From: an uncultured Bacilli bacterium
GTDB lineage: Bacteria > Bacillota_I > Bacilli_A > RF39 > UBA660
DNA length: 45,924 nt
Reading direction: 5' to 3'
Assembly: GCA_947623645.1 (NCBI GenBank)
Contig: CANQHK010000002.1
Location: 1-45,924, forward strand
Numbering within the stretch: the first letter of the stretch is position 1; each line of letters starts with the position of its first letter. A program made the position numbers and the translations under genes. The notes under the pieces are model-generated. The model worked only from the letters and a program-made list of their open reading frames with translations. It did no database searches and had not been told where the DNA came from. Shown here piece by piece: positions 27,011 to 40,832 of this stretch.

Positions 27011-27019
27011 TGATTCTTG

Positions 27020-28729: not shown

Positions 28730-30311
28730 AGTTAACCTCATTTATATTAAAATTAAAGAAAATTTTAACGGTTTTATCTTCATGGATTTCGATTCTATGA
28801 ATCAATGTCCTTAAAACTTCTTTATCAAAATTTTTTGTTTTTAAAAATTCAGAAATGTATTTTCTTTTCGTTTTTTCGTCCGTTAAAATGTTCTTTAGCT
28901 TTCTTATGAATATTTTTAAATCTGCTATTTTTTCTTCACATTTTTCTCTATCTTGCTCTAAATCTCTTTTTATTCCAAAAAATTCATCCTTAGAAATAAT
29001 ATTATTTGCTCGATCCTTATATAAATTGCTAATAGCCTTATCAATCGTAATCATTTTGGATTGATAATTATTTAAAGCATTTTCATATTTACTTAAAACA
29101 TTAAAATTACATAAAGAGGTTTCATATTTTTTTTCTAAAGATTCATTATTAGAATACTTGATTAAAATTGTTCTAATTTCCTTTAAAACAAGATCATTCA
29201 AATCTTCTTCTCTATAATAATGCATTGTGCATACATGATTACGATAAGTTGCATAGGTTCTACACAGATATATTGGAGTAATTTTTGTAGAGCTCTTCTG
29301 CCCTTTTACGCGTCGTACTAACATCGTCTTACCACAATCACCACAAACAACGAATCCTTTTAATAAATAATCATATTTTCGATGTCGTATATCCGTTCCT
29401 CTTTTGGGAGAATTAACTCTTTCAAAAATTTCGGGAGAAATAATTTGAGGTAATACTCCTTTTTTTATTATCCACTTACTTCTTGGCAGTAATCTTTTCT
29501 TTTTCGACTTCAAGCTAACTCTTTCATATTTTCCTTGAATCAAAGTTCCTATATAAGCTTCATTTTCTAATATATGTTTAACAGAAGAGGCCTTCCATAT
29601 ATTTGTAGTTATCGTGACTTTTTTCATTTTCTTGCCTCTATAAACATCTGGAGGTTGAATCCCTTCCTTTGTTAAAATTCTTGCAATCCTTCCTTCCGAT
29701 TGTCCTCTATCTTTTAATTCAAAGATTTTTTGAACAATTGGTGCAGCATATTCATCAATAACAAGTAGTTTACTATTTTCTTCTGATCTTTTATATCCAA
29801 AAGGAACAGAACTACCTACAAATTCTCCTTTTTTCATCATATCGTGTCGAACACTTTTAATTTTTTTTGATATATCTTTTAAATACATATCATTGATAAC
29901 TGCCTTAAAAGGAATTATATCTTCTACTCCATTAGGAGTTAAAGAGTCATAATTATCCAATATAGCAATATATCGAATATTATGTTCTGGAAAATACTTA
30001 AATACATAATTGCCCGTTTCTATAAACTCTCTACCTAATCTAGACATATCTTTTGTAATTACACAATCGATTACACCATTTTCAATGTCATTTATTAGTT
30101 GGCGAAAAGCAGGTCTATCAAAATTACCACCAGAATATCCATCATCAACATAGTAATCATATATTTCAATATTGTTTTTCAAAGCAAAATCTTTTATAAA
30201 TGCTCTTTGATTTTTGATACTTATACTTTCATTATTTTTATTATCATCTTCTATTGAAAGCCTTAGATATCCTCCTGCTTTGTATGTTTTATCAGTTAAG
30301 CAATTGTTCAT
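28722..30311 (-). CDS. Large serine recombinase (second, paralogous)
   Basis: YLRLSIEDD...DDGYSGGNFDRPAF...VITKDMSRLGRE, zinc ribbon CGDCGKTM...C and a coiled-coil C-terminus. The likely start is MNNCL at 30311, behind AGAGAGGGTG. The ORF-track start is 30353. Confidence 0.9.
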   Translation of the reverse strand: MNNCLTDKTYKAGGYLRLSIEDDNKNNESISIKNQRAFIKDFALKNNIEIYDYYVDDGYSGGNFDRPAFRQLINDIENGVIDCVITKDMSRLGREFIETGNYVFKYFPEHNIRYIAILDNYDSLTPNGVEDIIPFKAVINDMYLKDISKKIKSVRHDMMKKGEFVGSSVPFGYKRSEENSKLLVIDEYAAPIVQKIFELKDRGQSEGRIARILTKEGIQPPDVYRGKKMKKVTITTNIWKASSVKHILENEAYIGTLIQGKYERVSLKSKKKRLLPRSKWIIKKGVLPQIISPEIFERVNSPKRGTDIRHRKYDYLLKGFVVCGDCGKTMLVRRVKGQKSSTKITPIYLCRTYATYRNHVCTMHYYREEDLNDLVLKEIRTILIKYSNNESLEKKYETSLCNFNVLSKYENALNNYQSKMITIDKAISNLYKDRANNIISKDEFFGIKRDLEQDREKCEEKIADLKIFIRKLKNILTDEKTKRKYISEFLKTKNFDKEVLRTLIHRIEIHEDKTVKIFFNFNINEVNYG

Positions 30312-30394
30312 TTGCACCCTCTCTTTCTTCCTAACTAACTCCACATAATACAATCATTATAAATTGCCTATAAATTTATTTCCAATGTATAAAT

Positions 30395-30520
30395 TTATTG
30401 ATATTTTCCTTCTCGCAGTGTTGACTTCAAATATATTTCAAATGCTTCTAAAATTTTTTCTTGAATTGTTGGAGCATCTTCATCAAAAACACATATAACT
30501 AATTCCTTGCTTTTATTCAT
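30395..30520 (-). CDS. Small unannotated ORF (41 aa) heading the recombinase module; candidate accessory/directionality factor
   Basis: My own translation is MNKSKELVICVFDEDAPTIQEKILEAFEIYLKSTLREGKYQ*. A strong RBS (AGAGGAGGGA) lies 5 nt upstream of ATG 30520. The ORF is below the ORF-track size cutoff. The function is pure inference from position. Confidence 0.4.
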   Translation of the reverse strand: MNKSKELVICVFDEDAPTIQEKILEAFEIYLKSTLREGKYQ

Positions 30521-30565
30521 AGTATCCCTCCTCTTTAAACTTATGAATTTTTTCTTAATTAATGA

Positions 30566-30608
30566 ACAAAAAAATTAGAACAATCTACTTTTGTCTACTG
30601 TTCTAATT
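30566..30608 (-). terminator. Terminator separating the cargo operon from the recombinase module
   Basis: 10-bp perfect stem AATTAGAACA/TGTTCTAATT (30573-30582 / 30599-30608) with a 16-nt loop, followed on the minus strand by T7 (plus-strand A-run 30568-30574). It lies about 150 nt after the stop of the 689-aa gene. Confidence 0.5.
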
Positions 30609-30761
30609 TGTTTCAATAATATAATAAAATTCGGTTTTAAATTTCTTAATTACTTAATATTAATAAGTATTGCTTGATACTTTTTCATGAAGATTGAAAT
30701 CTTTATATGATTTTATCTCAATCACAGTTTCAGCGAAATTATCTATTTTGTTGAATATTTT

Positions 30762-32831
30762 TTATTTTGTAATTGTTTTTCTATCCTTTGCCTTAATTTT
30801 GGATTGATGGTTGGTGTCATATTTTTTCAATATTGCTAATGTTGTTTCTGGAACTAACTGTGCTACTTTTTCCCAATCATTATTATTCAAAGCTTTTCTC
30901 ACTTCTTTCGCACTAATCGCAGTACCATTTATATCCATAAATCGAGGAATTTCAATAACTTCTATTCCATACAATGGCAAATTATTCTTTAATTCTCTAT
31001 TATAGGATGCAGTTATAATATCTGTTTTTTCTTCTCCTACAAATCTCTTTTTTACATTTAACGTCGGTGCAATATAATCAGTAAATATCTCTCTATCTAA
31101 TGATAAATCTAATGTAACATCTGTTTTTTCATCCCTATTAAAATATTCTGGGAAAATCATAGAAGAACCAAAAATTTTTCCACTTGGAATGACTGTTACA
31201 TTCGAAAAATGTTTACAACCATTCTGTACCATTTTAAATCTATCATCAAACTTAAATATAGACTTATCATCTTGAACTACAATAACAAATAATTGTTCTA
31301 CTTGTTTAGAAACATAATCAATTAGATTATAGTGACCATAAGTAAAAGGATTACAATTCATCAATATAGCACCATTAGGACCCCTAGATATGTTCAATTT
31401 TCTAAGCATATTTAAGTATTCCTCAATATACTTATTATTTTCAAAAACTTTTCTTTTAATCTCTCGCTTTATTGGTTGGGCTAATTTTTTATTATCTGGA
31501 TTTCGAATCAATAAATTATTTTCTATTTTACTATACATATATTCAGCAACATGAGAATTAGCAACGTGATTACAATGGGCTGGTTTGTCGATAAAATAAT
31601 TATGAAGAGTAGTATCATTAAATACAGGTAATAAAGAAATCACATCACTATAACCGAGCTCTAATAATCTTTGCTTTTCTTTGCTTGATATTGTAAACAC
31701 CATTTTATCTCCATTTTTTACATTTACAGAATCAGCAATTCGAATTTGTTCAGGCAATTCCATTGCTCTTAAACCATAATTATTTACAGAATAATCCCTA
31801 TCCTCTTTATTTACCTTTCTCTGTAAATAGCTTGCAATGGTGTGTGCATCATCAACTAAAGCACCATATATCATACAAGGACCAAACAAATTGATGTCAA
31901 AAGCATAATCATGAATTTTATCTGTAGTATAGCGAATACCATTAATACTCTTACAAAAATTATTATTTGAATCAGCCAATCGACAAATACCATTTTTGAG
32001 AATTGTCCCAGGAGATAAATTTTTCCTTTCTATGTAATCTTCTGTAAATAAATCTCCCAAAACATTTTCTAATAATTGCCTGATTTCTAAATCATTTTTA
32101 TAATTACTTAAATAGTATATATAATTTACTTTTGCTGCCATCCTTAATTTTTCTGAAAAAGATAAATTCGTAATTTGTTCTTTATCAGGAAATTCAAAAA
32201 CAATTGTCTCATAGTCTTTACATTTTAAAAATTCATTTACAAAATAATAAATTTCAGCATCATTACACAATTCATTAATTGATACATTTTTTGAAATATC
32301 AAGACTTTCAAATCGAGCTTTTTTTACAATTTCTTCCTTCAATTGTTTAGAATTATTGTCCGTATCAATTAATAATGAATTCGGATGAAGTATTGCTTCC
32401 AAATAATGATCATAGGAAGTTTCAAGCAAAACTATCTGAAAATTATTTCCATAAACATTAATATAATTATATAATTCTTGAGATAGCTTTCCCATTATAA
32501 ATACAGTTTCAGGATTTTGACTTCTTACATAATTCATTATTTTATCATTATTGGCATATAAACATTTCCACCTATCTAAATCAATAGAGGTGTCTTTCCA
32601 TTCACTAGAGTTGTTCAGTTCTAAATTTTTTTTATATACAGCTACTTCGTCCATTGATATTTCTAAATTAGCACCACTTAATAAATTATTTAAAAACGAT
32701 TGATATGTAACAAAGTGTGCATCATCAAATGCAACAATAATTTCTTGATTTTGTAAAAATAAATTTATCAGTTTTCTTTTTAAATTTTCTTCTTGCTTAT
32801 TTATATAACAAATATTTTTATTATTTACCAT
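30762..32831 (-). CDS. 689-aa fusion protein: unknown ~470-aa N-terminal region plus a C-terminal CitC-like (citrate lyase ligase-type) nucleotidyltransferase domain
   Basis: The C-terminus GAILMNCNPFTYGHYNLIDY...FTDYIAPTLNVKKRFVGEE...ISAKEVRKAL...LVPETTLAILKKY parallels CitC (NANPFTLGH...; ...RFVGTEP...; ISASRVR...; LVP..TL). The TxGH and ISxxxxR motifs of the cytidylyltransferase-like superfamily are present. I do not recognise the N-terminal region. Confidence 0.65.
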   Translation of the reverse strand: MVNNKNICYINKQEENLKRKLINLFLQNQEIIVAFDDAHFVTYQSFLNNLLSGANLEISMDEVAVYKKNLELNNSSEWKDTSIDLDRWKCLYANNDKIMNYVRSQNPETVFIMGKLSQELYNYINVYGNNFQIVLLETSYDHYLEAILHPNSLLIDTDNNSKQLKEEIVKKARFESLDISKNVSINELCNDAEIYYFVNEFLKCKDYETIVFEFPDKEQITNLSFSEKLRMAAKVNYIYYLSNYKNDLEIRQLLENVLGDLFTEDYIERKNLSPGTILKNGICRLADSNNNFCKSINGIRYTTDKIHDYAFDINLFGPCMIYGALVDDAHTIASYLQRKVNKEDRDYSVNNYGLRAMELPEQIRIADSVNVKNGDKMVFTISSKEKQRLLELGYSDVISLLPVFNDTTLHNYFIDKPAHCNHVANSHVAEYMYSKIENNLLIRNPDNKKLAQPIKREIKRKVFENNKYIEEYLNMLRKLNISRGPNGAILMNCNPFTYGHYNLIDYVSKQVEQLFVIVVQDDKSIFKFDDRFKMVQNGCKHFSNVTVIPSGKIFGSSMIFPEYFNRDEKTDVTLDLSLDREIFTDYIAPTLNVKKRFVGEEKTDIITASYNRELKNNLPLYGIEVIEIPRFMDINGTAISAKEVRKALNNNDWEKVAQLVPETTLAILKKYDTNHQSKIKAKDRKTITK

Positions 32832-32860
32832 ATTACCCTATCCCCTGTATAAACATTATT

Positions 32861-33613
32861 TTACGGACGAACTATAGAAAGAATAAAGTCTATAATTTCA
32901 TCATCATATCCATATAATTCGTGTTTTCCATCTTGTATTGTAGTCAAACTTAATCTATGCTTTGTACAAAATTTTTCTATATTTTCATAAAGAACCGTCT
33001 TATCCAAAGTACCTTGTATAATTGATATATTGTCAAAATTAGAATTTTTTATTTTTTTATCACCATTTTTAAACTCATCATAACTATTTTTATAAATCTT
33101 AATATTATTATATAAAGGCATATACTCATTAGTCTTGAAATAATCATTAGAAATACCAGATTTATTTTCCATTATTTCACAAAAGTTGATTGCTGGACAC
33201 ATTAATATAGTGTTTCGTATATCAGATTTTTTTTCTAAAAGTCGATTTAAAATGACAAAGCCACCAAAACTACAACCAAATAAATAAATAGGTACATTGT
33301 ATTCTTTTGCAACAAAATGAATTACATCATTTAAATAATCAATACACCTGCTTAAAGTAAATTGAGAAAAATCGGTTTTATCTTCTCCGTGCCCAGGAAA
33401 ATCAAAAGCATAAACTCCCAAATTATTTTCTAATAGTCTATCATAAAATCTTGTAGCCCAATTTTTATTACTACCTAGTCCATGACAATAAATAATGATT
33501 CCCTTTAAATGATTACTTGGTATTGCACTAAAAACATTAATTTTTCCCATTAATATGCTATTCATTTTAACCCGTGTATCGTTTTTTGCTATATTAATCT
33601 TATTTTCATCCAT
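32861..33613 (-). CDS. Alpha/beta hydrolase (serine hydrolase)
   Basis: 250 aa. IIYCHGLGSN, FDFPGHGED and the nucleophile elbow GCSFGG (GxSxG). Confidence 0.75.
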   Translation of the reverse strand: MDENKINIAKNDTRVKMNSILMGKINVFSAIPSNHLKGIIIYCHGLGSNKNWATRFYDRLLENNLGVYAFDFPGHGEDKTDFSQFTLSRCIDYLNDVIHFVAKEYNVPIYLFGCSFGGFVILNRLLEKKSDIRNTILMCPAINFCEIMENKSGISNDYFKTNEYMPLYNNIKIYKNSYDEFKNGDKKIKNSNFDNISIIQGTLDKTVLYENIEKFCTKHRLSLTTIQDGKHELYGYDDEIIDFILSIVRP

Positions 33614-33651
33614 AAATATCCCTCATTCATATATAATTTTAAACCATTATA

Positions 33652-34455
33652 TCATATCTTTCCAATATATTTTTCAAACGTCTTTTTATTAGGATAATTT
33701 ATATTATCTAATTCCTTATATAATTTTAGATATTCATAATCTACAGATTGTTCAACAATATCCAATTCTCCATTTTTCTCTTCAAGTATATAATAAATCG
33801 CAGCTTTATCTATAGCTACACCTGTTCCATTCAATGAATAAAACTCTGTCTGATTGAATTTATGATGCCTATAAAAATGATAATGACCATAAATTATAAC
33901 ATCATAATTATCTATAGTATTACCAAAAAACAGTGGATCGTTATCTGCAGAAACAACATTTTTTGTTTTAGGTAAAGTAAATCTTATATCTTTTGAAGTA
34001 TTTGTATCAAAAAAACATTCTGGGTGCTCACCCTCATACTTCCATACACCAGAATAATCATATCGTACATCAATTGGAAAATGACATAAAGCTACTTTGT
34101 GATTATTAAAATTTAATTCAATCGTGTGTGACTGTTCTTTTAAAAATTGAATTTGCTCTTGGCTGAGTTGTTTTTCAGTCCATATAGCATTATAATATCT
34201 TTCTATATTGTGATTTTTCAAATATGGAAAACATTCAGTACCTAATACTATATATTCTTCTGCATTTCCTAATATTGTCATTATATTATTTTCAATTAAT
34301 AAATCTAAACATTCTTTAGGAGAGTTTCCTAATCCTATTACATCTCCTAATGAATATACTTTTCTTATGTTTTTTTTCTTTATATCTTCGAGCACACTTT
34401 TTAATGCTTCTAAGTTAGCATGGACGTCAGTTATTATTGCAATCTTATCTTTCAT
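33652..34455 (-). CDS. Metallophosphoesterase (calcineurin-like superfamily)
   Basis: 267 aa. Motifs IITDVHAN (DxH), SLGDVIGLG (GD), LGNAEE (GNxE) and YGHYHF (GHxH). Confidence 0.8.
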   Translation of the reverse strand: MKDKIAIITDVHANLEALKSVLEDIKKKNIRKVYSLGDVIGLGNSPKECLDLLIENNIMTILGNAEEYIVLGTECFPYLKNHNIERYYNAIWTEKQLSQEQIQFLKEQSHTIELNFNNHKVALCHFPIDVRYDYSGVWKYEGEHPECFFDTNTSKDIRFTLPKTKNVVSADNDPLFFGNTIDNYDVIIYGHYHFYRHHKFNQTEFYSLNGTGVAIDKAAIYYILEEKNGELDIVEQSVDYEYLKLYKELDNINYPNKKTFEKYIGKI

Positions 34456-34471
34456 AATTATACCTCATTTC

Positions 34472-34500
34472 TTGATATTTTATTTACTTTATGATACTAT
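34472..34500 (+). promoter_or_regulatory. Candidate sigma-A promoter (extended -10) for the Tmk-like kinase gene
   Basis: TTGATA (34472-34477), a 17-nt spacer, then TGaTACTAT with -10 TACTAT (34495-34500), about 27 nt upstream of ATG 34527. Confidence 0.4.
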
Positions 34501-34526
34501 AACATAGCCAAGGAAGTGAGCGATTT

Positions 34527-35015
34527 ATGCTAATCATTGAAGGTTTAGATGGTAGTGGTAAAACAACATTAATAAATCATCTTCGAATGGATAATAAAAA
34601 AGTTTTAATACCAGAAAACATTCTTAATTCTTTTGTGAAATACCAAAACCTGTTAAAAGAATTATCATCAGACTCAATGATGGATCGATCTTTTATTAGT
34701 GAAATGGTTTATGGAAAAGTATTGTCTAATAAAACAAAATTAACAGAAGAGGAATACCAACAGTTATTAAGCTTGTACTCCAAAAACAATTCAATTATTA
34801 TATATCTCTATGCACCAAAAGAAATTTTATTAATGCGTAGAACCAGTGATAAAAAAGATCAATTTGTATTATCAAAATTTTATGAAAAATTATTAGATGA
34901 ATTTGAGTATCGTTTAAATCAAGCCCATACTTTTTTACCTACTTATAAAATTAATACTTATGAAAATGATGAAAATCAAGTTCTATCGAAAGTAAAAAAA
35001 CTATCTAAATTCTAA
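34527..35015 (+). CDS. Thymidylate-kinase-like P-loop nucleotide kinase (short form)
   Basis: 162 aa. LIIEGLDGSGKTTL P-loop, MDRSFISEMVYG (DR(Y/F)xxSxxAY-type NMP-binding motif) and a Lys/Arg lid-like segment MRRTSDKK. It is the only plus-strand gene in the element. Confidence 0.7.
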   Translation: MLIIEGLDGSGKTTLINHLRMDNKKVLIPENILNSFVKYQNLLKELSSDSMMDRSFISEMVYGKVLSNKTKLTEEEYQQLLSLYSKNNSIIIYLYAPKEILLMRRTSDKKDQFVLSKFYEKLLDEFEYRLNQAHTFLPTYKINTYENDENQVLSKVKKLSKF

Positions 35016-36287
35016 TTTTTTTGTAAAATTTGGAATATGAATTGTTGAGACAATTTCTGGAGAATAAGTAACGTTTTGATGTCTATCTAATTCAAATGAT
35101 GGTTTCAAACTCAATAATATCAAATCTTGCATCGACAAAATATTTCTCATGAATAAAGCTTTATCATAATGAATAGAAAAATCTCTATTTATATTTTGTC
35201 TTTGTACCAAAGCTATTTTTAACGTATCATTGTTTTTTAATACACTGTCTAATAAACCACCTAAATATGTTAATATTATTTCTGTTTCTCTTTTTGAAAC
35301 ATTATATTCAGATAACAACATTTTCATATTATCCATACAAGCGCTCATATTTCTATTAAAAAATGCTGTTCTATTATATCTTGCCTCATCAATCATATAT
35401 TTACCATTACTAACCAATCTAGATAGAAAAACAGGAGATAATATTGAATAATAATAAGCAGCACCAAAATTATCAGTAGTAAAAAAGTTTGGATATAATT
35501 GATAGTCCCAGTTTTGTTGAAATGAATCAGTTATACCATTTTTTCTAAAAATATCATCAATCATCTTCATACTTTCTACATCACAACAATTAAATTCACC
35601 TGATAAACCATATTTTAAAACAGTTTCTTCAAAATTACTATTAAATCCATGAAAACAATATCCATCGTTAATATACTTTTGTCTGATCAAATTTAGTATT
35701 GTTTCTTTTGGAGTTTTACTAAAATTCTCTTTTTGAAGAATATTTCTAATTAAAATATCATCACATTTTTTTAAAACTTCTTCAAATGACTCACTACTTT
35801 CACAAACTTGTATTAGACAATTATAGTATTCATGAACAAATTTTTCATTTTGAATATCCTCTCTATTTATAATCATATATTGATATATTTTTTGTAGCAA
35901 AAAAGATTGAATAAAGAGTTGTTCATCTGCCCATCCATAATGATGAACACCAATTTGTGTTAAATCATATTTAAAATTTTTTCTATTTAAAATATCAAAT
36001 ATATCTTCTAATAAAGTAATATTAAGTACTTTTTCAAAATATTGAACAAATTCATTTCCATTATTATTTTTTGAAGTTTGGTTTCCATAAATTTTACAAC
36101 TGCCATCAATATCAACATTCATTATATTTCTATGACTTATAATCTTTTTAGACAAGTTATAGTATTCATCTTTTGAAAGTTTCATTTTTTGACAAATCAT
36201 ATTTATTGCTATTTCTTTAAATATCTTTTCTTTAGAGTCCATTTCTACAATCATATTGTATAAATCCATATTTTTATCCATTTTCAT
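35001..36287 (-). CDS. Hypothetical 428-aa protein (orphan; no recognisable motif)
   Basis: Long ORF translationally coupled to the upstream NUDIX gene by a 14-nt overlap. No TM helices or catalytic motifs that I can identify. Confidence 0.5.
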   Translation of the reverse strand: MKMDKNMDLYNMIVEMDSKEKIFKEIAINMICQKMKLSKDEYYNLSKKIISHRNIMNVDIDGSCKIYGNQTSKNNNGNEFVQYFEKVLNITLLEDIFDILNRKNFKYDLTQIGVHHYGWADEQLFIQSFLLQKIYQYMIINREDIQNEKFVHEYYNCLIQVCESSESFEEVLKKCDDILIRNILQKENFSKTPKETILNLIRQKYINDGYCFHGFNSNFEETVLKYGLSGEFNCCDVESMKMIDDIFRKNGITDSFQQNWDYQLYPNFFTTDNFGAAYYYSILSPVFLSRLVSNGKYMIDEARYNRTAFFNRNMSACMDNMKMLLSEYNVSKRETEIILTYLGGLLDSVLKNNDTLKIALVQRQNINRDFSIHYDKALFMRNILSMQDLILLSLKPSFELDRHQNVTYSPEIVSTIHIPNFTKKLEFR

Positions 36288-36708
36288 TTAAATACATTTC
36301 TATAGCTTTTTTCTGATATGGTAATTCTAATTTTTCTAAAATATGATTCTTATCCATTATTATCAACTCGGACTCTTTTTCTAATGGAAGTAATATCTTA
36401 TCATCTATTTCTACTAAAAAAATATGTGCTAATGATTCCATATTAATATTATCTCTAGTAACCCAATAACAATCTATAGTATATAATTCTTTTGCTTTTT
36501 TTACCAAACAGCCACTTTCTTCTAGAAATTCTCTTTTTAAACATTCGAAGCATGATTCACCTTTTTTGATTCCTCCACCTATTAATGAAATTTCATTATT
36601 TTTTTTTGTTAAATACATTTGATTGTTTTTTTCATATATTCCAAAACATGTCTCCCGGAATATATAATGAATTCCCTTAGATTTTATTCCAATTTGTACT
36701 TTTTTCAT
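36274..36708 (-). CDS. NUDIX hydrolase
   Basis: 144 aa with an intact Nudix box, GGGIKKGESCFECLKREFLEESG (GX5EX7REUXEEXGU). Confidence 0.85.
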   Translation of the reverse strand: MKKVQIGIKSKGIHYIFRETCFGIYEKNNQMYLTKKNNEISLIGGGIKKGESCFECLKREFLEESGCLVKKAKELYTIDCYWVTRDNINMESLAHIFLVEIDDKILLPLEKESELIIMDKNHILEKLELPYQKKAIEMYLNENG

Positions 36709-37487
36709 TAATCATCCCACACTTTCCATGGTGCTTTTCCTATTTTTAGTAATTTATTTAAATATTCTCTTTCACTTTGAAAGTCCATACATTGCCAAAA
36801 TCCAAGATGTTTATATGCTGCTACTTGGTTTGTTAAAACGAATTTTTCTAGTATTTCTTTTTCAAATGATTCTGAGTCTGGATTTAATTCTTTTAAAACA
36901 GCCTTATTTATAACCATAAATCCAGCATTAATCCATTCATCATCTTTTAAAAATTTTTCTCTAAAATAATCCACTTTATTATTTCGAATTTCTACAACTC
37001 CAAATCTCTCTTTTCTTTTTACAACGGATATTGTTACCAAACTGCTATTATTTTTGTGAAATTGATATAAGTTCTTGATGTTGATATCAGAAACTGCATC
37101 AGCATAGGTTAAGAAGAAACAATCACTGTCATCATCCAGATACCTTTCGACCCTTTTTAACCGTCCACCTGTCTGTGTATCTAATCCAGTATCAACTAAT
37201 GTTATTTTCCAATCTTCACTATTATCGTTAATGATATGAATATCATTATTTTTAAAATCTAAATTTAAATCCTTTTTTTTATTCATTAAGTTAATAAAGT
37301 ATTTTTTAAATTCTTCTTGCTTATATCCTAAACATATTATAAACTCTTTAACGCCATAATAATAGTAAATTTTCATTATATGCCAAATAATTGGCTCTTC
37401 ACCTACTGTAACCAAAGGTTTAGGCGTTGTATCATTTTCAACCTTTATCCTACTACCCTTACCTCCTGCAAAAATAACACATTTCAT
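36708..37487 (-). CDS. Glucose-1-phosphate cytidylyltransferase-like sugar-phosphate nucleotidyltransferase (RfbF/DdhA family)
   Basis: MKCVIFAGGKGSRIKVENDTTPKPLVTVGEEPIIWHIMKIYYYYGVKEFIICLGYKQEEFKKYF closely follows the RfbF N-terminal signature. At 259 aa the length is typical. Confidence 0.8.
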   Translation of the reverse strand: MKCVIFAGGKGSRIKVENDTTPKPLVTVGEEPIIWHIMKIYYYYGVKEFIICLGYKQEEFKKYFINLMNKKKDLNLDFKNNDIHIINDNSEDWKITLVDTGLDTQTGGRLKRVERYLDDDSDCFFLTYADAVSDINIKNLYQFHKNNSSLVTISVVKRKERFGVVEIRNNKVDYFREKFLKDDEWINAGFMVINKAVLKELNPDSESFEKEILEKFVLTNQVAAYKHLGFWQCMDFQSEREYLNKLLKIGKAPWKVWDD

Positions 37488-37495
37488 ATTTCCTC

Positions 37496-39175
37496 CTATA
37501 TCTTCAAAATACTTGCATTATTAATTGATGTATTCCAATAATATCCCGTTTCTTTTTTTGCAACTATTATTCTTATCCCCAATCTTTCGGTTAAATAGGA
37601 TATTTCATTAAAATCTAGCTCTAAATCTTTTATAATAACAGTTCGATTTTTAAATTCTATTTGATTTTTAGAAATTTTTTTCTGTAACTTTTCTATTAAT
37701 GAAACTATATATTCTTTATCAGGAAATTCAAATTGTTCAAACTTCTTTTTACAAAGATTTCTTTGAGAATTTGGACAATTATTGCAATTCAAGCAGATAT
37801 CTGTATTATAGAAAAATTTTCTATCTGGTTGATGCAAAGCATATCCTAATGCACAACTTGTTGTTTGAAAGATAGGATAATTTCCATTTTTTGCAAGATC
37901 ATTCCATAAATAATCATAAGCTTTATTGTTCCATACATTATCTGACTTTAAAGCATTATTTCTATTTTCTTTCAATTCATTCCATTCTATGTTATCAATA
38001 ATATCATTCGTTGTTTTTAAGCCTATTGCAACAGAAGCTACACAATATTTTTTTACAAATTGATATATTTTAAATATATCTTTTTTACTAGAGTTTTGTG
38101 GAATAAATGGTCTCCAGTAATGAATAATTGTTTTTCCTTTCTGGGATAATTTAATAAAGTTATTTTCTATTATCTTCTTATTAACCCCCACTTCTATATT
38201 TCTGTCCAATCCTGAATAGCTCAAAAAGAATATAAACTTATGACCTAATTTTTCGTAACCATCAATAAAATCAATAAAATCATCAGGAATATCACATTTT
38301 GATATAAAAATTATTGGATTTTTTATTTTTCGTTCCATAAGAATTTCTATTAATTGTTTCAAATATTCTATATTATCTGAAGTAGAAAAAACATCCGTTT
38401 GTGAAAATAAGCATAATGGCATATCAGGGATATAAAATTTGCTTTCTAATAATTGATTTACTGCTTGTTCAGGACTAATTAAAACTATAGGCTTTATTTT
38501 ATTTAATCCTCTCTCTTTAAGAAAACAATACTTACATTGCTTAGGGCAACCTTGTATTGGATTTAAAACTAACCAAGTTGCATGAACATCTACAATTGGA
38601 TAAAATTGTGGTGTTTTTTTCTTTTCAAAATCATTAAGAAACTTCCTTGCATCCATAACCATTTTATTAAATTCAATTTCAAGATCTAGCTTTAAATCAT
38701 ATGCAATAGAAAATACTATTTCAAATAATCGTGCTAAATTGAAATATAAAAAGTCATCTTCTTTCGCAAAACCATATCGTATCTTATAATGCCTATATCC
38801 ATATTTTTCTAAAACTTTTTCGGAAATTTCTCCATACAGTACATTAAAACTCATTAATGCCTCTGATATATTTTCAAATTTGATATAGTTATAATTATAA
38901 TTGTAATTTTGAATATCTAAGTCCAATTTCCAACAAAGGCTAAATAATTGTAATACAATATCGGATAGTTCATCTCCGAGATCATTTATTTTTCTGCCAG
39001 TTTCACCATATTCCTTATGAGATGAAATTAGGTAATTAAAGTGTCCCAATTGAACATTTAATTCAGCTAAAACAGTGATTGCATCCCAACTTTTATTTTC
39101 TGTAATCTTAAATTGTTCTTTTAATTTAACTGCAATTTGGTAATTTTTTTTTATAAATGCTTTAATGTTCTCCAT
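37496..39175 (-). CDS. Fusion protein: N-terminal MazG-like (all-alpha NTP pyrophosphohydrolase-like) region plus a radical SAM domain (SplB/COG1533-like) with a C-terminal Cys cluster
   Basis: The N-terminal pattern VLAELNVQLG...INDLGDELSDIVLQLFSLCWKLDLD resembles small MazG/YpjD-type pyrophosphatases. The CxxxCxxC motif NPIQGCPKQCKYCF is encoded at 38525-38548. A further cluster, CLNCNNCPNSQRNLC, lies near the C-terminus. The likely start is ATG 39175 (GGAGGTAAATATG). The ORF-track start is 39187. Confidence 0.75.
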   Translation of the reverse strand: MENIKAFIKKNYQIAVKLKEQFKITENKSWDAITVLAELNVQLGHFNYLISSHKEYGETGRKINDLGDELSDIVLQLFSLCWKLDLDIQNYNYNYNYIKFENISEALMSFNVLYGEISEKVLEKYGYRHYKIRYGFAKEDDFLYFNLARLFEIVFSIAYDLKLDLEIEFNKMVMDARKFLNDFEKKKTPQFYPIVDVHATWLVLNPIQGCPKQCKYCFLKERGLNKIKPIVLISPEQAVNQLLESKFYIPDMPLCLFSQTDVFSTSDNIEYLKQLIEILMERKIKNPIIFISKCDIPDDFIDFIDGYEKLGHKFIFFLSYSGLDRNIEVGVNKKIIENNFIKLSQKGKTIIHYWRPFIPQNSSKKDIFKIYQFVKKYCVASVAIGLKTTNDIIDNIEWNELKENRNNALKSDNVWNNKAYDYLWNDLAKNGNYPIFQTTSCALGYALHQPDRKFFYNTDICLNCNNCPNSQRNLCKKKFEQFEFPDKEYIVSLIEKLQKKISKNQIEFKNRTVIIKDLELDFNEISYLTERLGIRIIVAKKETGYYWNTSINNASILKI

Positions 39176-39177
39176 AT

Positions 39178-40038
39178 TTACCTCCATATATTCTTTCTTA
39201 ATGTCAATTCTTTCGAATATTCTTCTTTTTCTTCACCATTCAATATTTTTGCTTTATTTTCTAGAACACTCATGTAATAATTAATTAAATTATTTCGAAT
39301 AACACTATTTGATTGTTTTAATATAATTTGGTTATAAAACACATCACAGTAAGACAATACATCATAAGCTTTTTTTACTTGATTTTGGTAATTAGAATTT
39401 CGCATAATACCATTTGAATTTTTATAATAATTGTATCCTATGTAAGGAATACTAGATACACAACTTGAACTATCTAATACTAAAGATGTAATAGCAAAAT
39501 CTTCTTGTAGCTTTCCATTAGGAAATTGAAAATTTTTCTTTTTCCAAAAATCAGTATTATAGGCATATAACCATACAGGACTATATATTTCATAATTTCT
39601 TGCAAATTTATTCAATACATCGATTCCTTTTCTATTTTGAAAGCTAGATGTTACAAATTTTTCTACAATTTTATTATCATCATCAACCATTATTGCCTGA
39701 TAACGAACAACATCATTTTTTGTACTTTGCTCATTTAATTTTTCAAAGAGATTCTTTTCAATCCAATCATCAGAATCTATGAAAATTATAGTGTCTCCTC
39801 GAATTTTTGAAAGTGCATAATTCCTTGCACTACTAACATCTTTAAAATTAACTTTAAAATATCTTATACAAGGATTATCATAATTATTATGTATTAACTC
39901 ATAGGTTCCATCTATACTATAATCATCAACAATAATAATCTCAAAATTTTTATAGGTTTGATGTAATATAGAATTCAAACATCTAGAAATATAATCTACT
40001 CTATTATGTGTTGGAACAATAACACTAAAATCTCTCAT
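39178..40038 (-). CDS. Family 2 (GT-A) glycosyltransferase
   Basis: FSVIVPTHNRVDYISRCLNSILHQTYKNFEIIIVDDYSIDGT and the DxD motif IFIDSDDW. Confidence 0.88.
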   Translation of the reverse strand: MRDFSVIVPTHNRVDYISRCLNSILHQTYKNFEIIIVDDYSIDGTYELIHNNYDNPCIRYFKVNFKDVSSARNYALSKIRGDTIIFIDSDDWIEKNLFEKLNEQSTKNDVVRYQAIMVDDDNKIVEKFVTSSFQNRKGIDVLNKFARNYEIYSPVWLYAYNTDFWKKKNFQFPNGKLQEDFAITSLVLDSSSCVSSIPYIGYNYYKNSNGIMRNSNYQNQVKKAYDVLSYCDVFYNQIILKQSNSVIRNNLINYYMSVLENKAKILNGEEKEEYSKELTLRKNIWR

Positions 40039-40058
40039 TTTACCTCCAGTATTTAAAG

Positions 40059-40103
40059 AAAAAAGTGAATACGAAAGCTATGATGCTTGCCATATCCACT
40101 TTT
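40059..40103 (-). terminator. Intrinsic-terminator-like hairpin inside the 5' leader of the cargo operon (possible attenuator/riboswitch expression platform)
   Basis: Minus strand: AAAAGUGGAUAUGGCAAGC-AUCAUA-GCUUUCGUAUUCACUUUUUU. This is a ~14-bp stem with one bulge and some G-U pairs, followed by U6. It ends about 20 nt before the GT2 start codon, just upstream of the GGAGG RBS. Confidence 0.5.
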
Positions 40104-40146
40104 GATATTTTATATTGCAATTATCACAGGGCAAACACCCTCAAAA

Positions 40147-40175
40147 ATTAGCATTTATTATACAACTAAAGTACC
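40147..40175 (-). promoter_or_regulatory. Consensus sigma-A promoter for the cargo operon
   Basis: On the minus strand: TTGACA (40175-40170), exactly 17 nt, then TATAAT (40152-40147). Both hexamers match the consensus perfectly. The predicted 5' UTR is about 100 nt. Confidence 0.6.
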
Positions 40176-40535
40176 CTTTTGTCAATAGAGTTAACATTAT
40201 TGCAATCATTATTACAGTATAATTATTATTTTAGAGATAATGCTTTTCAAAAAAGTCTTTATCAACTTCACATTTTTGATGTATTACTACAATTAGACAT
40301 ATTCTTTCTATATTTAAAAAAACTATGTATGGCAATAAAAAAAGAACTGAAAATCAATTCAATTCTTGTTATGCATTGTTCGTTAAAATTTATATTCCTT
40401 TTAATTACTTAGGAATATATCCGCCTCTTCAAATGAATGTAATATTTTTTTAAATCACTAAATTTTTTTAATTTTTTCGCTTTATTAGAAATTTTCAATT
40501 TGCTTTTTTCTTTATAACTAAAGGGTTTGCGAGTG

Positions 40536-40544
40536 GTTACTTAA
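40536..40544. repeat. Right element-side inverted repeat GTTACTTAA
   Basis: Exact reverse complement of 27020-27028. It lies 6 nt from the right junction core. Confidence 0.55.
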
Positions 40545-40550
40545 TTTAAT

Positions 40551-40832
40551 GTCAGCATCGATATGTAAGATTTTTCCAGGCAGATAAAAATACTCGTTTC
40601 GATCAAGAGAAAAATCTTTATCCATTCGGTCTAACAAATCTTTATCATCTATGACTTCATCTTTTCCTTCTAACTTTAAATCATCTATTTTACTATCAGC
40701 ATAAAGACGAATATTAACTCCCTTTAAGTAAACCATATCTCCTTCTATTCGGATAATTTGAAAAACGGTATCATTATCATAGGAATTACGACTTACATAA
40801 TCTCCAACATTAAAAAACATAAGATCACCCAA
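40551..40832 (-). CDS. yabG: yabG 5' segment (N-terminal ~94 codons); split gene
   Basis: FNVGDYVSRNSYDNDTVFQIIRIEGDMVYLKGVNIRLYADSKIDDL...YFYLPGKILHIDAD matches the B. subtilis YabG N-terminus (QIGDMVARKSYQMDVLFRIIGIE...RLIADSDFSDL...YFHMPGKVLHLDGD). After ...HIDAD the frame runs 10 unrelated codons (IKLSNHSQTL) into the element and stops at 40518. Confidence 0.88.

What the first reader, a model, noticed from the sequence alone, without database searches (positions are those of the whole stretch)
30762..40175. Element cargo is a tightly coupled, nucleotide-centred enzyme set with no obvious known pathway (candidate novel nucleotide or nucleotide-sugar modification or defence system)
- Nine cargo genes fill the element. 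None encodes a capsid, tail, terminase or conjugation function.
- First operon (40038->35001; genes overlap or lie 8 nt or less apart): GT2 glycosyltransferase, MazG-like/radical-SAM fusion, RfbF-like glucose-1-P cytidylyltransferase, NUDIX hydrolase, 428-aa orphan.
- Then a Tmk-like P-loop kinase on the opposite strand.
- Then a metallophosphoesterase, an alpha/beta hydrolase and a 689-aa protein with a CitC-like nucleotidyltransferase domain.
- At least six of the nine proteins are predicted to bind or cleave nucleotides or phosphoesters.
- Missing parts: there is no NDP-sugar dehydratase, epimerase, flippase or polymerase that would make this an ordinary O-antigen or capsule locus. There is also no restriction, abortive-infection or toxin gene that I recognise.
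- Hypothesis (i): the set synthesises a CDP-linked or otherwise nucleotide-activated modified sugar for envelope or spore-surface decoration. The analogy is SPbeta interrupting the spore polysaccharide gene spsM.
- Hypothesis (ii): the set makes or destroys a modified nucleotide as an anti-phage or DNA-modification function. Analogies are viperin-type radical SAM enzymes acting on NTPs and often found near nucleotide kinases, phage thymidine-hypermodification clusters that combine P-loop kinases, radical SAM enzymes and MazG-like pyrophosphatases, and dNTP-depleting defence systems.
- The sigma-A consensus promoter points to vegetative expression, which fits (ii) somewhat better than a mother-cell-only role.
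Basis: partly seen in the sequence, partly recalled or inferred. Interest (0 to 1): 0.85.

Follow-up and report, generated by a model that had tools for sequence, protein, structure and literature searches.

The report
Mobile radical-SAM nucleotide-modifying gene module
Nine tightly packed genes carried by a small mobile element form a conserved, so far undescribed enzyme set built around a new radical-SAM enzyme, which most likely makes a chemically altered, sugar-bearing nucleotide inside the cell, possibly for defence against viruses or rival DNA.

Summary
Nine intact genes (30762-40038) with the stated domains fill an element that splits yabG. None has a membrane segment or a match to a phage structural, conjugation or known defence family.

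It is not a chance assembly. The same nine genes, in the same order and orientation, recur in at least five other gut-Bacilli lineages (radical-SAM (rSAM) identity 61-85%). They sit in different mobile contexts.

The heart of the module is an uncharacterised rSAM family with an extra four-cysteine site. It is almost always fused or adjacent to a MazG/dimeric-dUTPase-fold domain and a NUDIX hydrolase. That trio occurs in Firmicutes, Actinobacteria, Alphaproteobacteria and CPR bacteria, sometimes with no sugar enzyme.

Other partners are mostly nucleotide enzymes: small kinases, dCTP and cytidine deaminases, a 5'-nucleotidase and a DEDDh exonuclease. In soil metagenomes the operon is TIR-or-caspase protein, then RelA/SpoT-like protein, then rSAM.

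Other variants carry one to three glycosyltransferases and sugar-tailoring enzymes.

Best reading (about 0.4): a cytoplasmic pathway that radically modifies a probably pyrimidine nucleotide and couples it to CDP-glucose-derived sugar, for use in conflict. Main rival (about 0.25): an unusual sugar added to a host glycopolymer.

No chemistry or phenotype is shown.

The parts
40157..40185 (-). Sigma-70/sigma-A-type promoter-like site, TTGACA-17-TATAAT (12 of 12 matches), about 120 nt upstream of the GT2 start.
   Evidence: It is the only 12/12 site in 30300-40600. A TTGACA-17-nt site lies at the same distance in L001 (12/12), L008 (11/12), and L011 and L013 (10/12). Function was not tested.
40039..40156 (-). 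5' leader with a 5' hairpin and a strong terminator-like hairpin followed by a U run, just before the GT2 ribosome-binding site. It is a possible attenuator.
   Evidence: MFE is -30.1 kcal/mol, z = -2.9. Stem-plus-T-run equivalents with different sequence occur in L001, L011 and L013. No Rfam family matches. This is weak: only five sequences.
39178..40038 (-). Soluble family-2 glycosyltransferase (286 aa, DxD motif present).
   Evidence: PF00535, E = 3e-29. Nearest solved relatives are GalT1, K4CP, TarS, TarP, SpsA and GmaR. No TM segment. It always lies directly upstream of the rSAM gene in the gut module.
38618..39187 (-). N-terminal all-alpha domain of the 563-aa fusion protein, with the MazG/dimeric-dUTPase (NTP pyrophosphohydrolase) fold and a remodelled first metal motif.
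   Evidence: The profile hits the MazG-type structures 2gta, 4qgp, 1vmg and 5ie9 at E = 0.016-0.05. Foldseek matches dimeric dUTPases and phage NTP-PPases. The HMM recognises a PGAP-annotated MazG protein in pFRL6. Invariant residues are W34, E42, Q46, G48, H49, D72, E73 and D76.
37496..38617 (-). Radical-SAM core of the fusion protein. It has C214xxxC218xxC221, four further invariant cysteines (C445, C465, C471, C479) and a small C-terminal alpha/beta domain.
   Evidence: PF04055. Alignments A1, A3 and A8. AF2 model pLDDT 93. Only generic rSAM structural matches were found, and no PDB relative by sequence profile.
36708..37487 (-). Sugar-1-phosphate nucleotidyltransferase, RfbF-like (glucose-1-P cytidylyltransferase).
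   Evidence: TIGR02623 scores 299.2 bits against a cut-off of 300.25, aligned over the full length. PF00483. The gene is fragmented or lost in several sister loci.
36274..36708 (-). NUDIX hydrolase (144 aa) with an intact NUDIX box.
   Evidence: PF00293, E = 3e-8. The box GX5EX7REUXEEXGU can be read in the translation. In L004 it is fused to the alpha/beta hydrolase.
35001..36287 (-). 428-aa protein of unknown fold and function.
   Evidence: No Pfam, NCBIfam, PHROG, PADLOC or PDB hit. AF2 pLDDT is 70 and Foldseek finds no match. It has 242 distant relatives, none with a Pfam domain among those tested. It is not related to the HprK-like kinases.
34527..35015 (+). Small Tmk/dNK-like P-loop kinase, always encoded antisense to the rest of the module.
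   Evidence: PF01712, E = 9.5e-9; phrog_761 'thymidylate kinase', E = 1.3e-16. The nearest solved protein is SPbeta YorR. The orientation is conserved in all nine-gene loci.
33652..34455 (-). Calcineurin-like metallophosphoesterase (267 aa).
   Evidence: PF12850 and PF00149. It is lost in L013.
32861..33613 (-). Alpha/beta-fold hydrolase (250 aa).
   Evidence: PF12146 and PF00561. The GCSFG nucleophile elbow is present. It is fused to NUDIX in L004.
30762..32831 (-). 689-aa protein. It has a novel 480-aa N-terminal region with conserved Cys, Asp and His residues, plus a C-terminal CitC-like HIGH-motif nucleotidyltransferase/adenylate-forming domain.
   Evidence: PF08218, 187 bits, residues 487-667. 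The N-region is found only together with this domain. Alignment A5.
27167..30353 (-). Context: two tandem large serine recombinases of the carrying element.
   Evidence: Both carry PF00239, PF07508 and PF13408. Related recombinases flank the module in L012, L023 and L053.
40518..40832 (-). Context: the 5' part of the interrupted yabG gene. The 3' part is at 26486-26950.
   Evidence: PF05582 profile positions 1-62 match here, and positions 129-280 match at 26486-26950.

Best explanation
**What it is**
The nine genes are one horizontally mobile functional module. Its core is a new radical-SAM enzyme family. The family is marked by the motifs HYWRP and LSYSG and by a second, four-cysteine site. 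It works together with a MazG/dimeric-dUTPase-fold nucleotide-binding domain and a NUDIX hydrolase.

**Inferred mechanism (none of these steps is shown)**
1. The MazG-fold domain binds a nucleoside triphosphate, probably a pyrimidine.
2. The rSAM domain modifies that nucleotide by radical chemistry.
3. The RfbF-like enzyme makes CDP-glucose.
4. The soluble GT2 joins the hexose to the modified nucleotide or nucleoside.
5. The Tmk-like kinase, NUDIX, MazG-fold domain and metallophosphoesterase set the phosphorylation state of intermediates and product.
6. The CitC-like adenylate-forming enzyme and the alpha/beta hydrolase add or remove an acyl group.
7. The 428-aa protein has no assignable role.

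**Inferred product and role**
The product would be a cytoplasmic nucleotide derivative. Because the module travels on mobile elements and relatives of its rSAM sit in immune-type operons, I infer a role in conflict: an antiviral or anti-invader nucleotide analogue or signal.

**Shown**
- Gene content and intact catalytic motifs.
- Co-inheritance and mobility.
- Domain folds.
- Partner statistics across loci.
For: **The module is real and mobile**
- The same nine genes, in the same order and orientation, occur in five other non-redundant lineages.
- They sit in a T4SS conjugative element (L001), next to serine recombinases (L012, L014-17, L053), and here inside yabG.

**The core is nucleotide-centred**
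- Across 75 non-redundant rSAM groups, the commonest neighbours are the MazG-fold protein (34 groups) and NUDIX (32 groups).
- Several loci have only rSAM + MazG-fold + NUDIX, with or without a kinase, and no sugar enzyme: L021, L062, L073, L085, L088, L091 and L049.
- The MazG-fold domain is fused N-terminally to the rSAM, or encoded just before or after it, or fused to a GT2 in L027.
- Characterised members of this fold bind (d)NTPs or phosphoribosyl-ATP (established knowledge of MazG, dimeric dUTPases, DCTPP1 and HisE).

**Other partners are nucleotide enzymes**
- The Tmk/dNK-like kinase here.
- Small P-loop kinases, a DEDDh exonuclease and an HD protein on Labrenzia, Streptomyces and Nostoc plasmids.
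- Two dCTP-deaminase-like proteins, a cytidine deaminase, a methyltransferase, GalU, the rSAM, a GT, a HAD hydrolase and a MazG protein on Streptomyces plasmid pFRL6.
- An NT5C-like nucleotidase and a CBASS-type S_4TM effector directly upstream of the rSAM in L022.

**Immune-type operons**
- Five contigs carry the tight operon TIR protein, then RelA/SpoT-like protein, then rSAM. Three partial contigs and one TIR-then-rSAM contig add to this.
- In L111 the TIR is replaced by a caspase domain on the same C-terminal module (49% identity, E = 3e-52). That is an effector swap.
- These rSAMs share all the family signatures.

**Cytoplasmic and self-contained**
- All nine proteins are soluble.
- The module carries its own consensus promoter.
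- The NTase type varies between lineages: RfbF-, GalU- or ManC-like. This suggests the sugar donor is an add-on rather than the defining substrate.
Against: - There is no experimental evidence and no characterised homologue of the rSAM, so the substrate is inferred only from its neighbours.
- No PADLOC defence model matches the module.
- The flanks seen are not defence islands.
- The nine-gene module has no recognisable effector, toxin or sensor.
- The immune-type operons involve rSAMs only 27-33% identical to this one, and they lack the MazG-fold, NUDIX and GT partners. Function may differ between clades.
- Several variants carry three GT2s plus acetyl- or pyruvyl-transferase, a polysaccharide deacetylase or UDP-GlcNAc 2-epimerase. 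That looks like oligosaccharide assembly on a polymer or protein.
- The GT2's nearest solved relatives glycosylate teichoic acid, glycosaminoglycans or proteins, not nucleotides.
- The first metal-binding motif of the MazG-fold domain is not conserved, so it may not hydrolyse anything.
- The NTase is fragmented or missing in L012, L013, L017, L020 and L053-55.
Confidence: 0.4

Rival explanations
1. Glycoconjugate decoration. The module makes an unusual nucleotide-activated sugar from CDP-glucose, tailored by the rSAM. The soluble GT2 then adds it in the cytoplasm to a host-made acceptor, such as teichoic acid, a secondary cell-wall polymer or a protein. This would resemble prophage TarP or TagE/TarS. 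The nucleotide hydrolases and kinase would serve sugar-phosphate and nucleotide recycling. The benefit would be an altered surface, for example masking of a phage receptor.
For: - The NTase is essentially RfbF.
- The GT2's nearest solved relatives are TarS, TarP, GalT1, SpsA and GmaR.
- Some variants have three GT2s plus a hexapeptide acetyltransferase and HAD (L004), or three GT2s plus a pyruvyl transferase and deacetylase (L027), or three GT2s alone (L077-81).
- UDP-GlcNAc 2-epimerase lies next to the module in four lineages.
- MurA-like enolpyruvyl transferase and GT4 accompany the Streptomyces relatives.
- Soluble, element-borne teichoic-acid glycosyltransferases are an established precedent (TarP; own knowledge).
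Against: - The most widespread form of the cassette has no NTase and no GT at all.
- The NTase is decaying in several nine-gene loci.
- A MazG-fold domain, a Tmk-like kinase, dCTP and cytidine deaminases, NT5C, an exonuclease, RelA/SpoT and TIR are not expected in a sugar pathway.
- No dehydratase, aminotransferase or reductase typical of deoxy-sugar pathways is present.
- No membrane or export component is present.
Confidence: 0.25
2. Secreted nucleoside-type natural product. The module is a small biosynthetic gene cluster for a glycosylated nucleoside antibiotic, analogous to the polyoxin/nikkomycin, blasticidin or tunicamycin pathways. It would be used against competitors rather than phages.
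For: - Streptomyces relatives lie in clusters with a MurA-like enolpyruvyl transferase, a class II aldolase, GT4 and a 'DUF6415 natural product biosynthesis protein'.
- An enolpyruvyl transferase followed by an rSAM recalls NikO/PolA followed by PolH in octosyl-acid formation (PMC5365060).
- The pFRL6 cluster resembles a cytosine-nucleoside pathway.
- ABC transporters lie near some loci.
Against: - The nine-gene module has no exporter or self-resistance gene and no membrane protein.
- Homology of this rSAM to PolH, NikJ, TunB or BlsE could not be tested, because no sequences were available.
- The carriers are 13-kb integrative elements and conjugative elements in gut Bacilli, which is unusual for antibiotic clusters.
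Confidence: 0.1
3. Nucleic-acid modification. The enzymes supply and attach a modified or glycosylated base to the DNA (or RNA) of the host or element. This would be self-marking or anti-restriction, as in the Dpd or Dnd islands or base J.
For: - Copies lie beside transfer genes in three conjugative contexts: L001, pFRL6 and Labrenzia pBCL1. The last also has an N6 DNA methylase and a DEDDh exonuclease.
- Partners include a dNTP-directed kinase, deaminases and MazG-type enzymes.
- GT-A-fold enzymes can glucosylate DNA, as the base-J glucosyltransferase does (own knowledge).
Against: - No base-exchange enzyme, hydroxymethylase, DNA-binding domain or partner restriction nuclease is present in the module.
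- The module is absent from 50,697 phage genomes and from IMG/VR.
- The rSAM shows no specific structural similarity to spore photoproduct lyase.
Confidence: 0.1
4. Peptide or protein modification. The rSAM, with its Cys-rich C-terminal region, modifies a peptide or protein. That target is also phosphorylated by the HprK-like or other kinases and then glycosylated.
For: - HprK-related kinase B-like proteins are partners in 17 groups.
- RimK-type ATP-grasp enzymes lie next to them in four lineages.
- A weak PqqD-like ORF, a CPBP protease and an ABC transporter lie downstream in L058.
- Foldseek lists the peptide-modifying rSAM enzymes SuiB and CteB among its hits.
Against: - No precursor-peptide candidate exists in the window.
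- No leader peptidase, cyclase or recognition element is present.
- The window module has a Tmk-like kinase, not an HprK-like one.
- The SuiB and CteB matches have poor superposition (rmsd of about 18-22 Å), so the structural similarity is not specific.
Confidence: 0.07

Closest known systems
Prokaryotic viperins (pVips): rSAM enzymes that convert CTP, GTP or UTP into 3'-deoxy-3',4'-didehydro chain terminators
   Same: - An rSAM enzyme inferred to act on a nucleoside triphosphate.
- Frequent linkage to small nucleotide kinases.
- Cytoplasmic action, with a small molecule as the agent.
- A viperin fold appears among the generic structural matches.
   Different: - No viperin sequence or PADLOC match.
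- An extra four-cysteine site and a C-terminal domain.
- An obligatory MazG-fold partner and NUDIX.
- Sugar-activating and glycosyl-transfer genes.
- Nine genes rather than one or two.
Element-encoded soluble teichoic-acid glycosyltransferases (S. aureus prophage TarP; TarS, TarM, TagE)
   Same: - A soluble GT-A/GT2 enzyme carried on a mobile element.
- It needs no membrane partner.
- TarS and TarP are among the nearest solved relatives of the GT2.
   Different: - Those are single genes that use a housekeeping UDP-sugar.
- Here the GT2 is locked to an rSAM-MazG-fold enzyme, its own NTase and five further nucleotide, phosphoester or acyl enzymes.
High-carbon nucleoside antibiotic pathways (polyoxin/nikkomycin PolA/NikO followed by the rSAM PolH/NikJ; tunicamycin TunB with Nudix TunN)
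   Same: - An rSAM acts on a nucleotide, with phosphatase or Nudix helpers and a glycosyltransferase.
- Streptomyces relatives of the rSAM directly follow a MurA/EPSP-type enolpyruvyl transferase. This mirrors PolA followed by PolH (PMC5365060).
   Different: - Homology to PolH, NikJ or TunB was not tested.
- The window has no enolpyruvyl transferase, peptide-assembly enzyme, exporter or resistance gene.
- The host is a gut Bacilli element, not an actinomycete.
Phage thymidine/cytidine hypermodification clusters and Dpd/Dnd DNA-modification islands
   Same: - They combine a P-loop kinase, an rSAM, MazG-type pyrophosphatases and glycosyltransferases.
- They are carried on islands.
   Different: - No homologue was found in phage collections.
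- There is no hydroxymethylase, thymidylate-synthase-like enzyme, transglycosylase or paired restriction component.
Sporulation-gene intervening elements (skin, SPbeta in spsM, gin, yin in yabG)
   Same: The carrier is a serine-recombinase element that splits the sporulation protease gene yabG, as the yin element of C. botulinum does (PMC10747680).
   Different: - This concerns the carrier, not the cargo.
- yin is prophage-like with different content.
- No other copy of this cargo lies in yabG.

Membership tests
Viperin / pVip | Sequence membership in the viperin rSAM family (detectable by viperin or PADLOC models, or by solved viperins) | tested here: not met
   - The 563-aa protein has no PADLOC family hit.
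- No PDB sequence hit, either alone or as a profile.
- Foldseek places viperin only at rank 17-19, among generic rSAM folds, with TM about 0.5.
Viperin / pVip | Converts an NTP into a ddh-NTP | not testable with these tools
   This needs an enzyme assay.
MazG NTP pyrophosphohydrolase (PF03819) | Pfam or sequence-level match | tested here: not met
   - No PF03819 hit at E <= 0.01.
- The profile search of the PDB was only marginal, E = 0.016-0.05.
MazG NTP pyrophosphohydrolase (PF03819) | All-alpha NTP-PPase fold | tested here: met
   - The AF2 model has pLDDT 93.
- Foldseek matches dimeric dUTPases (5mil, 5myd, 5myi) and many phage NTP-PPases or dUTPases, with target TM 0.45-0.64.
MazG NTP pyrophosphohydrolase (PF03819) | EExxE ... 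ExxD metal-binding motifs | tested here: inconclusive
   - The second motif, D72-E73-x-x-D76, is invariant.
- The first is replaced by E42-x3-Q46-x-G-H49.
- Catalytic competence is unknown.
Glucose-1-phosphate cytidylyltransferase RfbF (TIGR02623) | Score at or above the equivalog cut-off | tested here: inconclusive
   299.2 bits against a cut-off of 300.25, with a full-length alignment of 1-257 to 1-255.
O-antigen / capsule / teichoic-acid biosynthesis locus | Initiating phosphoglycosyl transferase, flippase or ABC exporter, and polymerase or ligase (all membrane proteins) | tested here: not met
   - No such Pfam or NCBIfam family was found.
- None of the nine proteins has a hydrophobic segment (maximum KD19 is 1.41).
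Citrate lyase ligase CitC (TIGR00124) | Full-length equivalog match | tested here: not met
   - 169 bits against a cut-off of 262.
- Only residues 429-674 align.
- The 430 N-terminal residues are unrelated.
Phage thymidine hypermodification cluster | Phage-borne, with a 5-hmdU-forming enzyme, a 5-HMUDK kinase and an aGPT-Pplase | tested here: not met
   - The rSAM has no homologue in INPHARED phages or IMG/VR.
- None of those families appears in the Pfam or PHROG results.
Any defence system in PADLOC-DB v2.0 | Model hits that make up a listed system | tested here: not met
   - Only weak domain-level hits appeared: PDC-M51B and VakA P-loop, and PDC-S07 NUDIX.
- Six of the nine proteins had none.
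dNTP-depleting defence (dCTP deaminase, dGTPase) | Presence of a dCTP deaminase or a dGTPase | tested here: not met
   - Absent from the window.
- dCTP-deaminase-like genes accompany only the distant pFRL6 relative.
Sporulation-gene intervening element (the carrier, not the cargo) | Element with a large serine recombinase interrupting a sporulation gene | tested here: met
   - The yabG halves are at 40518-40832 and 26486-26950.
- Two PF00239/PF07508/PF13408 recombinases lie at 27167-30353.
- Excision was not tested.

The most novel reading that the evidence does not exclude
The 'HYWRP' radical-SAM family defines a new, widespread class of nucleotide-based conflict systems.

- The rSAM converts a nucleotide into a modified antiviral molecule or signal.
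- In soil bacteria it would feed a TIR or caspase effector through a RelA/SpoT-like partner.
- In this gut element it would be elaborated into a glycosylated, possibly acylated, nucleotide by a nine-gene mobile pathway.
- That would be a viperin-like chemical defence with sugar conjugation, a chemistry not described so far.
Probability: 0.25. Interest if true: 0.85.

Novelty: new variant of a known kind. Interest (0 to 1): 0.7.

Why it matters
- If the inference is right, this is a second route, independent of viperin, by which bacteria use radical-SAM chemistry on nucleotides in conflicts.
- It would also yield a new class of glycosylated nucleotide analogues, which could be antiviral or antibiotic leads.
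- Whatever the function, three results stand on their own:
  - An uncharacterised rSAM family, present in at least four phyla, now has a defined signature and obligatory partners: a MazG-fold domain and NUDIX.
  - A compact nine-gene version can be tested by expression.
  - A TIR-or-caspase / RelA-SpoT / rSAM operon looks like an undescribed immune system.
- The work also shows that a sporulation-gene intervening element can carry metabolic or conflict cargo rather than prophage remnants.

Tried and rejected
- **ADP-ribosyltransferase idea for the 428-aa orphan.** The conserved 'FHG...YYYS...E' motifs suggested it. The AF2 model is mostly helical with pLDDT 70, and Foldseek found nothing. Rejected as unsupported.
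- **The orphan as a degenerate HprK-like kinase.** It occupies the same position in the operon. hhalign gave probability 0.1. Rejected.
- **Spore photoproduct lyase-like DNA enzyme.** JGI labels two relatives 'DNA repair photolyase'. SPL is not among the top structural matches. Not supported.
- **Known riboswitch in the 5' leader.** No Rfam match.
- **Precursor peptide for a peptide-modification pathway.** No plausible small ORF in the intergenic regions.
- **Phage origin.** No rSAM homologue in phage genomes or IMG/VR.
- **Sequence or profile searches of the PDB.** Uninformative for the rSAM, the orphan and the N-region of the 689-aa protein.
- **Literature searches.** Searches combining rSAM with MazG, Nudix, GT, TIR, RelA-SpoT or dCTP deaminase found no description of this system.
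- **GC content.** It does not delimit the cargo. The low GC (0.24-0.28) extends into the flanking housekeeping genes.

Full report
**1. The observation**

- GT2 (39178-40038), the 563-aa fusion protein (37496-39187), the NTase (36708-37487), NUDIX (36274-36708) and the 428-aa orphan (35001-36287) form a minus-strand block. Neighbouring genes overlap or lie 8 nt or less apart.
- A 162-aa P-loop kinase (34527-35015) is on the plus strand.
- A metallophosphoesterase (33652-34455), an alpha/beta hydrolase (32861-33613) and a 689-aa protein (30762-32831) follow on the minus strand.

The Pfam, NCBIfam and PHROG scans confirm the domain calls. Three refinements apply.
- The NTase is essentially RfbF (TIGR02623, 299.2 bits against a cut-off of 300.25).
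- Only residues 487-667 of the 689-aa protein are CitC-like. The whole protein fails the CitC equivalog cut-off.
- The 'MazG-like' N-domain has no Pfam MazG hit.

Catalytic motifs can be read in the translations: the DxD of the GT2, GGxGxR of the NTase, the NUDIX box, the Tmk-type P-loop and DR motif, GxSxG of the hydrolase, the HIGH motif, and CxxxCxxC.

None of the nine proteins has a membrane segment. None hits a phage structural or conjugation family. None adds up to a PADLOC system.

The surrounding element splits yabG. Pfam U57 positions 1-62 match at 40518-40832 and positions 129-280 at 26486-26950. The element carries two large serine recombinases.

The 12/12 TTGACA-17-TATAAT site lies at 40185-40157.

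**2. Not a chance assembly**

A search with the fusion protein found 122 unnamed relatives. Genome, metagenome and contig look-ups gave 121 loci, which fall into 75 non-redundant rSAM groups.

The same nine genes, in the same order and with the kinase antisense, occur in five further lineages: L001, L008, L011, L013 and L014. Their rSAM identity to the window is 61-85%. The contexts differ.
- L001 is inside a T4SS conjugative element.
- L012, L014-17 and L053 are next to serine recombinases.
- Only the window copy is in yabG.

The promoter-like site travels with the module.

Some copies are eroding. The NTase is missing or fragmented in L012, L013, L017, L020 and L053-55. The phosphoesterase is missing in L013.

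**3. The core enzyme**

The rSAM domain has the canonical cluster motif plus four further invariant cysteines (C445, C465, C471, C479). It also has the family signatures LSYSG and HYWRP.

The AF2 model is confident, with pLDDT 93. Even so, the rSAM part matches only generic rSAM folds: PFL-AE, SuiB, HydE and viperin, with target TM of 0.57 or less. A family profile finds no solved relative. The family is therefore uncharacterised.

The N-domain is an all-alpha NTP-pyrophosphohydrolase fold.
- Its profile picks MazG-type structures as the top four PDB hits, though only at E = 0.016-0.05.
- Foldseek matches dimeric dUTPases and many phage NTP-PPases.
- Its HMM recognises an annotated MazG protein on plasmid pFRL6.
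- The first EExxE motif is replaced by an invariant Q46/H49, while D72-E73-x-x-D76 is kept. Hydrolytic activity is therefore uncertain.

The two domains are always linked. The arrangements seen are:
- fused in the order N-domain then rSAM core;
- separate genes, N-domain first (L023-25);
- separate genes, rSAM first (L006, L041, L045-47, L050);
- N-domain fused to a GT2 (L027).

**4. Partners across the family**

Within 7 kb of the rSAM, the neighbour counts across the 75 groups are:

| Neighbour | Groups |
|---|---|
| MazG-fold protein | 34 |
| NUDIX | 32 |
| Sugar-1-P NTase | 17 |
| HprK-related-kinase-B-like P-loop protein | 17 |
| GT2 | 12 |
| GT4 (Streptomyces; MurA-like and class II aldolase in 11 of these) | 12 |

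- The NTase is RfbF-, GalU- or ManC-like, depending on the lineage.
- The Streptomyces set is documented.
- The CitC-like protein, the orphan, the Tmk-like kinase and the hydrolase are specific to the gut module.
- Several loci hold only rSAM + MazG-fold + NUDIX, with or without a kinase, and no sugar enzyme.

Sugar-side additions:
- triple GT2 (L004, L027, L077-81);
- acetyl- and pyruvyl-transferases, deacetylases and an APH-like kinase;
- UDP-GlcNAc 2-epimerase in four lineages.

Nucleotide-side additions:
- pFRL6 carries a P-loop kinase, two dCTP-deaminase-like proteins, a cytidine deaminase, a methyltransferase, GalU, the rSAM, a GT and a HAD hydrolase, with a MazG protein nearby. The cluster lies beside Tra genes.
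- Labrenzia, Streptomyces and Nostoc plasmids carry the rSAM with a DEDDh exonuclease, a small P-loop kinase and an HD protein. In Labrenzia an N6 methylase is adjacent.
- In L022, an S_4TM CBASS-type effector and an NT5C-like nucleotidase lie directly upstream of the rSAM.

Soil metagenomes add an immune-type operon.
- Five contigs hold a tight operon of a TIR protein, then a RelA/SpoT-like protein, then the rSAM. Three partial contigs and one TIR-then-rSAM contig add to this.
- In L111 the TIR is replaced by a caspase domain on the same C-terminal module (49% identity, E = 3e-52).
- These rSAMs keep every family signature.
- Effector swapping of this kind is typical of immune systems (established knowledge).
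- PADLOC has no model for the rSAM and only domain-level hits for its partners.

No relative was found in 50,697 phage genomes or in IMG/VR.

**5. Interpretation**

The invariant core, a radical enzyme with two nucleotide-pyrophosphatase-type proteins, points to a nucleotide substrate. So do the nucleotide-metabolic and immune-type partners. The variable NTase type and the optional GTs suggest that sugar attachment is an elaboration.

For this window I therefore favour, at about 0.4, a cytoplasmic pathway that:
- radically modifies a probably pyrimidine nucleotide;
- glycosylates it from CDP-glucose;
- adjusts its phosphates and an acyl group.

I infer a role in conflict. Every chemical step is inferred.

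The main rival, at about 0.25, is synthesis and transfer of an unusual sugar to a host glycopolymer or protein. It rests on the multi-GT variants and on the GT2's nearest solved relatives, TarS, TarP and GalT1.

Lesser rivals are:
- a secreted nucleoside antibiotic, given the Streptomyces contexts and the PolA/PolH analogy (PMC5365060);
- nucleic-acid modification;
- peptide or protein modification.

**6. Comparison with known systems**

The module is not a viperin, a MazG family member by sequence, a CitC, an O-antigen or teichoic-acid locus, a phage hypermodification cluster or any PADLOC system (see the membership table).

It works most like viperin-type chemical defence or a nucleoside-antibiotic pathway. 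I found no description of it in eight literature searches.

**7. Side observations**

- The leader between the promoter and the GT2 folds into a terminator-like hairpin (z = -2.9). Sequence-divergent equivalents exist in sister loci, and no Rfam family matches. It may be an attenuator.
- The 428-aa orphan belongs to a family of at least 242 cluster representatives. None of those tested has a Pfam domain, and the fold is unrecognised.
- A related serine-recombinase element (L060) carries the CitC-like protein with an Fe-ADH, two GT4s, a HAD hydrolase and a NUDIX, but no rSAM.
- The yin paper states that no other yabG-interrupting element was known as of November 2023 (PMC10747680).

**8. Verdict**

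The finding is real, conserved and mobile, and it fits no described system. Its function is inferred only from gene content and neighbourhoods.

- Interest: 0.7.
- Novelty: a new variant of a known kind (radical-SAM nucleotide or nucleotide-sugar chemistry).
- There is a 0.25 chance that it marks a new class of nucleotide-based conflict systems.

Noticed in passing
window 26486-26950 and 40518-40832 (element about 26950-40518): The carrying element interrupts the sporulation protease gene yabG and has two tandem large serine recombinases (27167-30353). The only published yabG-interrupting element (yin, C. botulinum) was described as unique in 2023.
   Followed up: partly
window 40039-40156 (minus strand): The 5' leader upstream of the GT2 folds into a hairpin plus a strong terminator-like stem with a U run (z = -2.9). 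Sister loci have equivalent stems with different sequence. No Rfam family matches. It may be a new attenuator or riboswitch.
   Followed up: partly
L101:325-3437, L108:7954-11080, L110, L111:840-5202, L113 (soil metagenome contigs): There is a tight three-gene operon: TIR-domain protein, then RelA/SpoT-like protein, then an rSAM of the same family. In L111 the TIR is swapped for a caspase domain on the same C-terminal module. It looks like an undescribed immune system and is not in PADLOC v2.
   Followed up: partly
L064 (Streptomyces sp. F12 plasmid pFRL6, NC_023286.1, 67298-76690): The cluster holds a MazG protein, a P-loop kinase, two dCTP-deaminase-like proteins, a cytidine deaminase, a methyltransferase, GalU, an rSAM homologue, a 515-aa glycosyltransferase and a HAD hydrolase. 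It lies beside plasmid transfer genes.
   Followed up: partly
L022:7967-9766: A CBASS-type S_4TM effector (PF18159, E = 5e-22) and an NT5C-like 5'-nucleotidase lie directly upstream of a minimal rSAM module. No cyclase is in view. This is a single case.
   Followed up: partly
L060:69-9389 and L061: Another serine-recombinase element carries the CitC-like 711-aa protein with an Fe-ADH, two GT4 glycosyltransferases, a HAD hydrolase and a NUDIX, but no rSAM. The CitC-like/NUDIX/GT part may therefore be a separable sub-module.
   Followed up: no
window 35001-36287: The 428-aa orphan belongs to a broad uncharacterised family. It has 242 cluster representatives at E <= 1e-3, some in 650-850-aa proteins. 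Conserved positions include G-Y-x-F-H, Y280, S-P and N320. Ten relatives tested had no Pfam domain, and the fold is unrecognised.
   Followed up: partly
window 34527-35015: The Tmk-like kinase is encoded antisense to the rest of the module in every nine-gene locus. Its 3' end overlaps the end of the orphan gene by 15 nt. The reason for this conserved arrangement is unknown.
   Followed up: no
L012, L013, L017, L020, L053-L055: The RfbF-like NTase gene is deleted, split or reduced to fragments in several otherwise intact copies of the module. The sugar-activating step may be dispensable or supplied by the host.
   Followed up: partly
L031-L044, L051, L052, L065, L066 (Streptomyces chromosomes and linear plasmids): A conserved cluster holds GT4, a hypothetical protein, a class II aldolase, a MurA-like enolpyruvyl transferase and an rSAM homologue. 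It often also has a DUF6415 'natural product' protein, a 3'-5' exonuclease and a small AAA/P-loop protein. It recalls PolA/PolH of polyoxin biosynthesis.
   Followed up: partly
window 4793-4913 (minus strand): The ribosomal protein L10 leader (RF00557, 58.8 bits) is an ordinary housekeeping feature of the flank.
   Followed up: no
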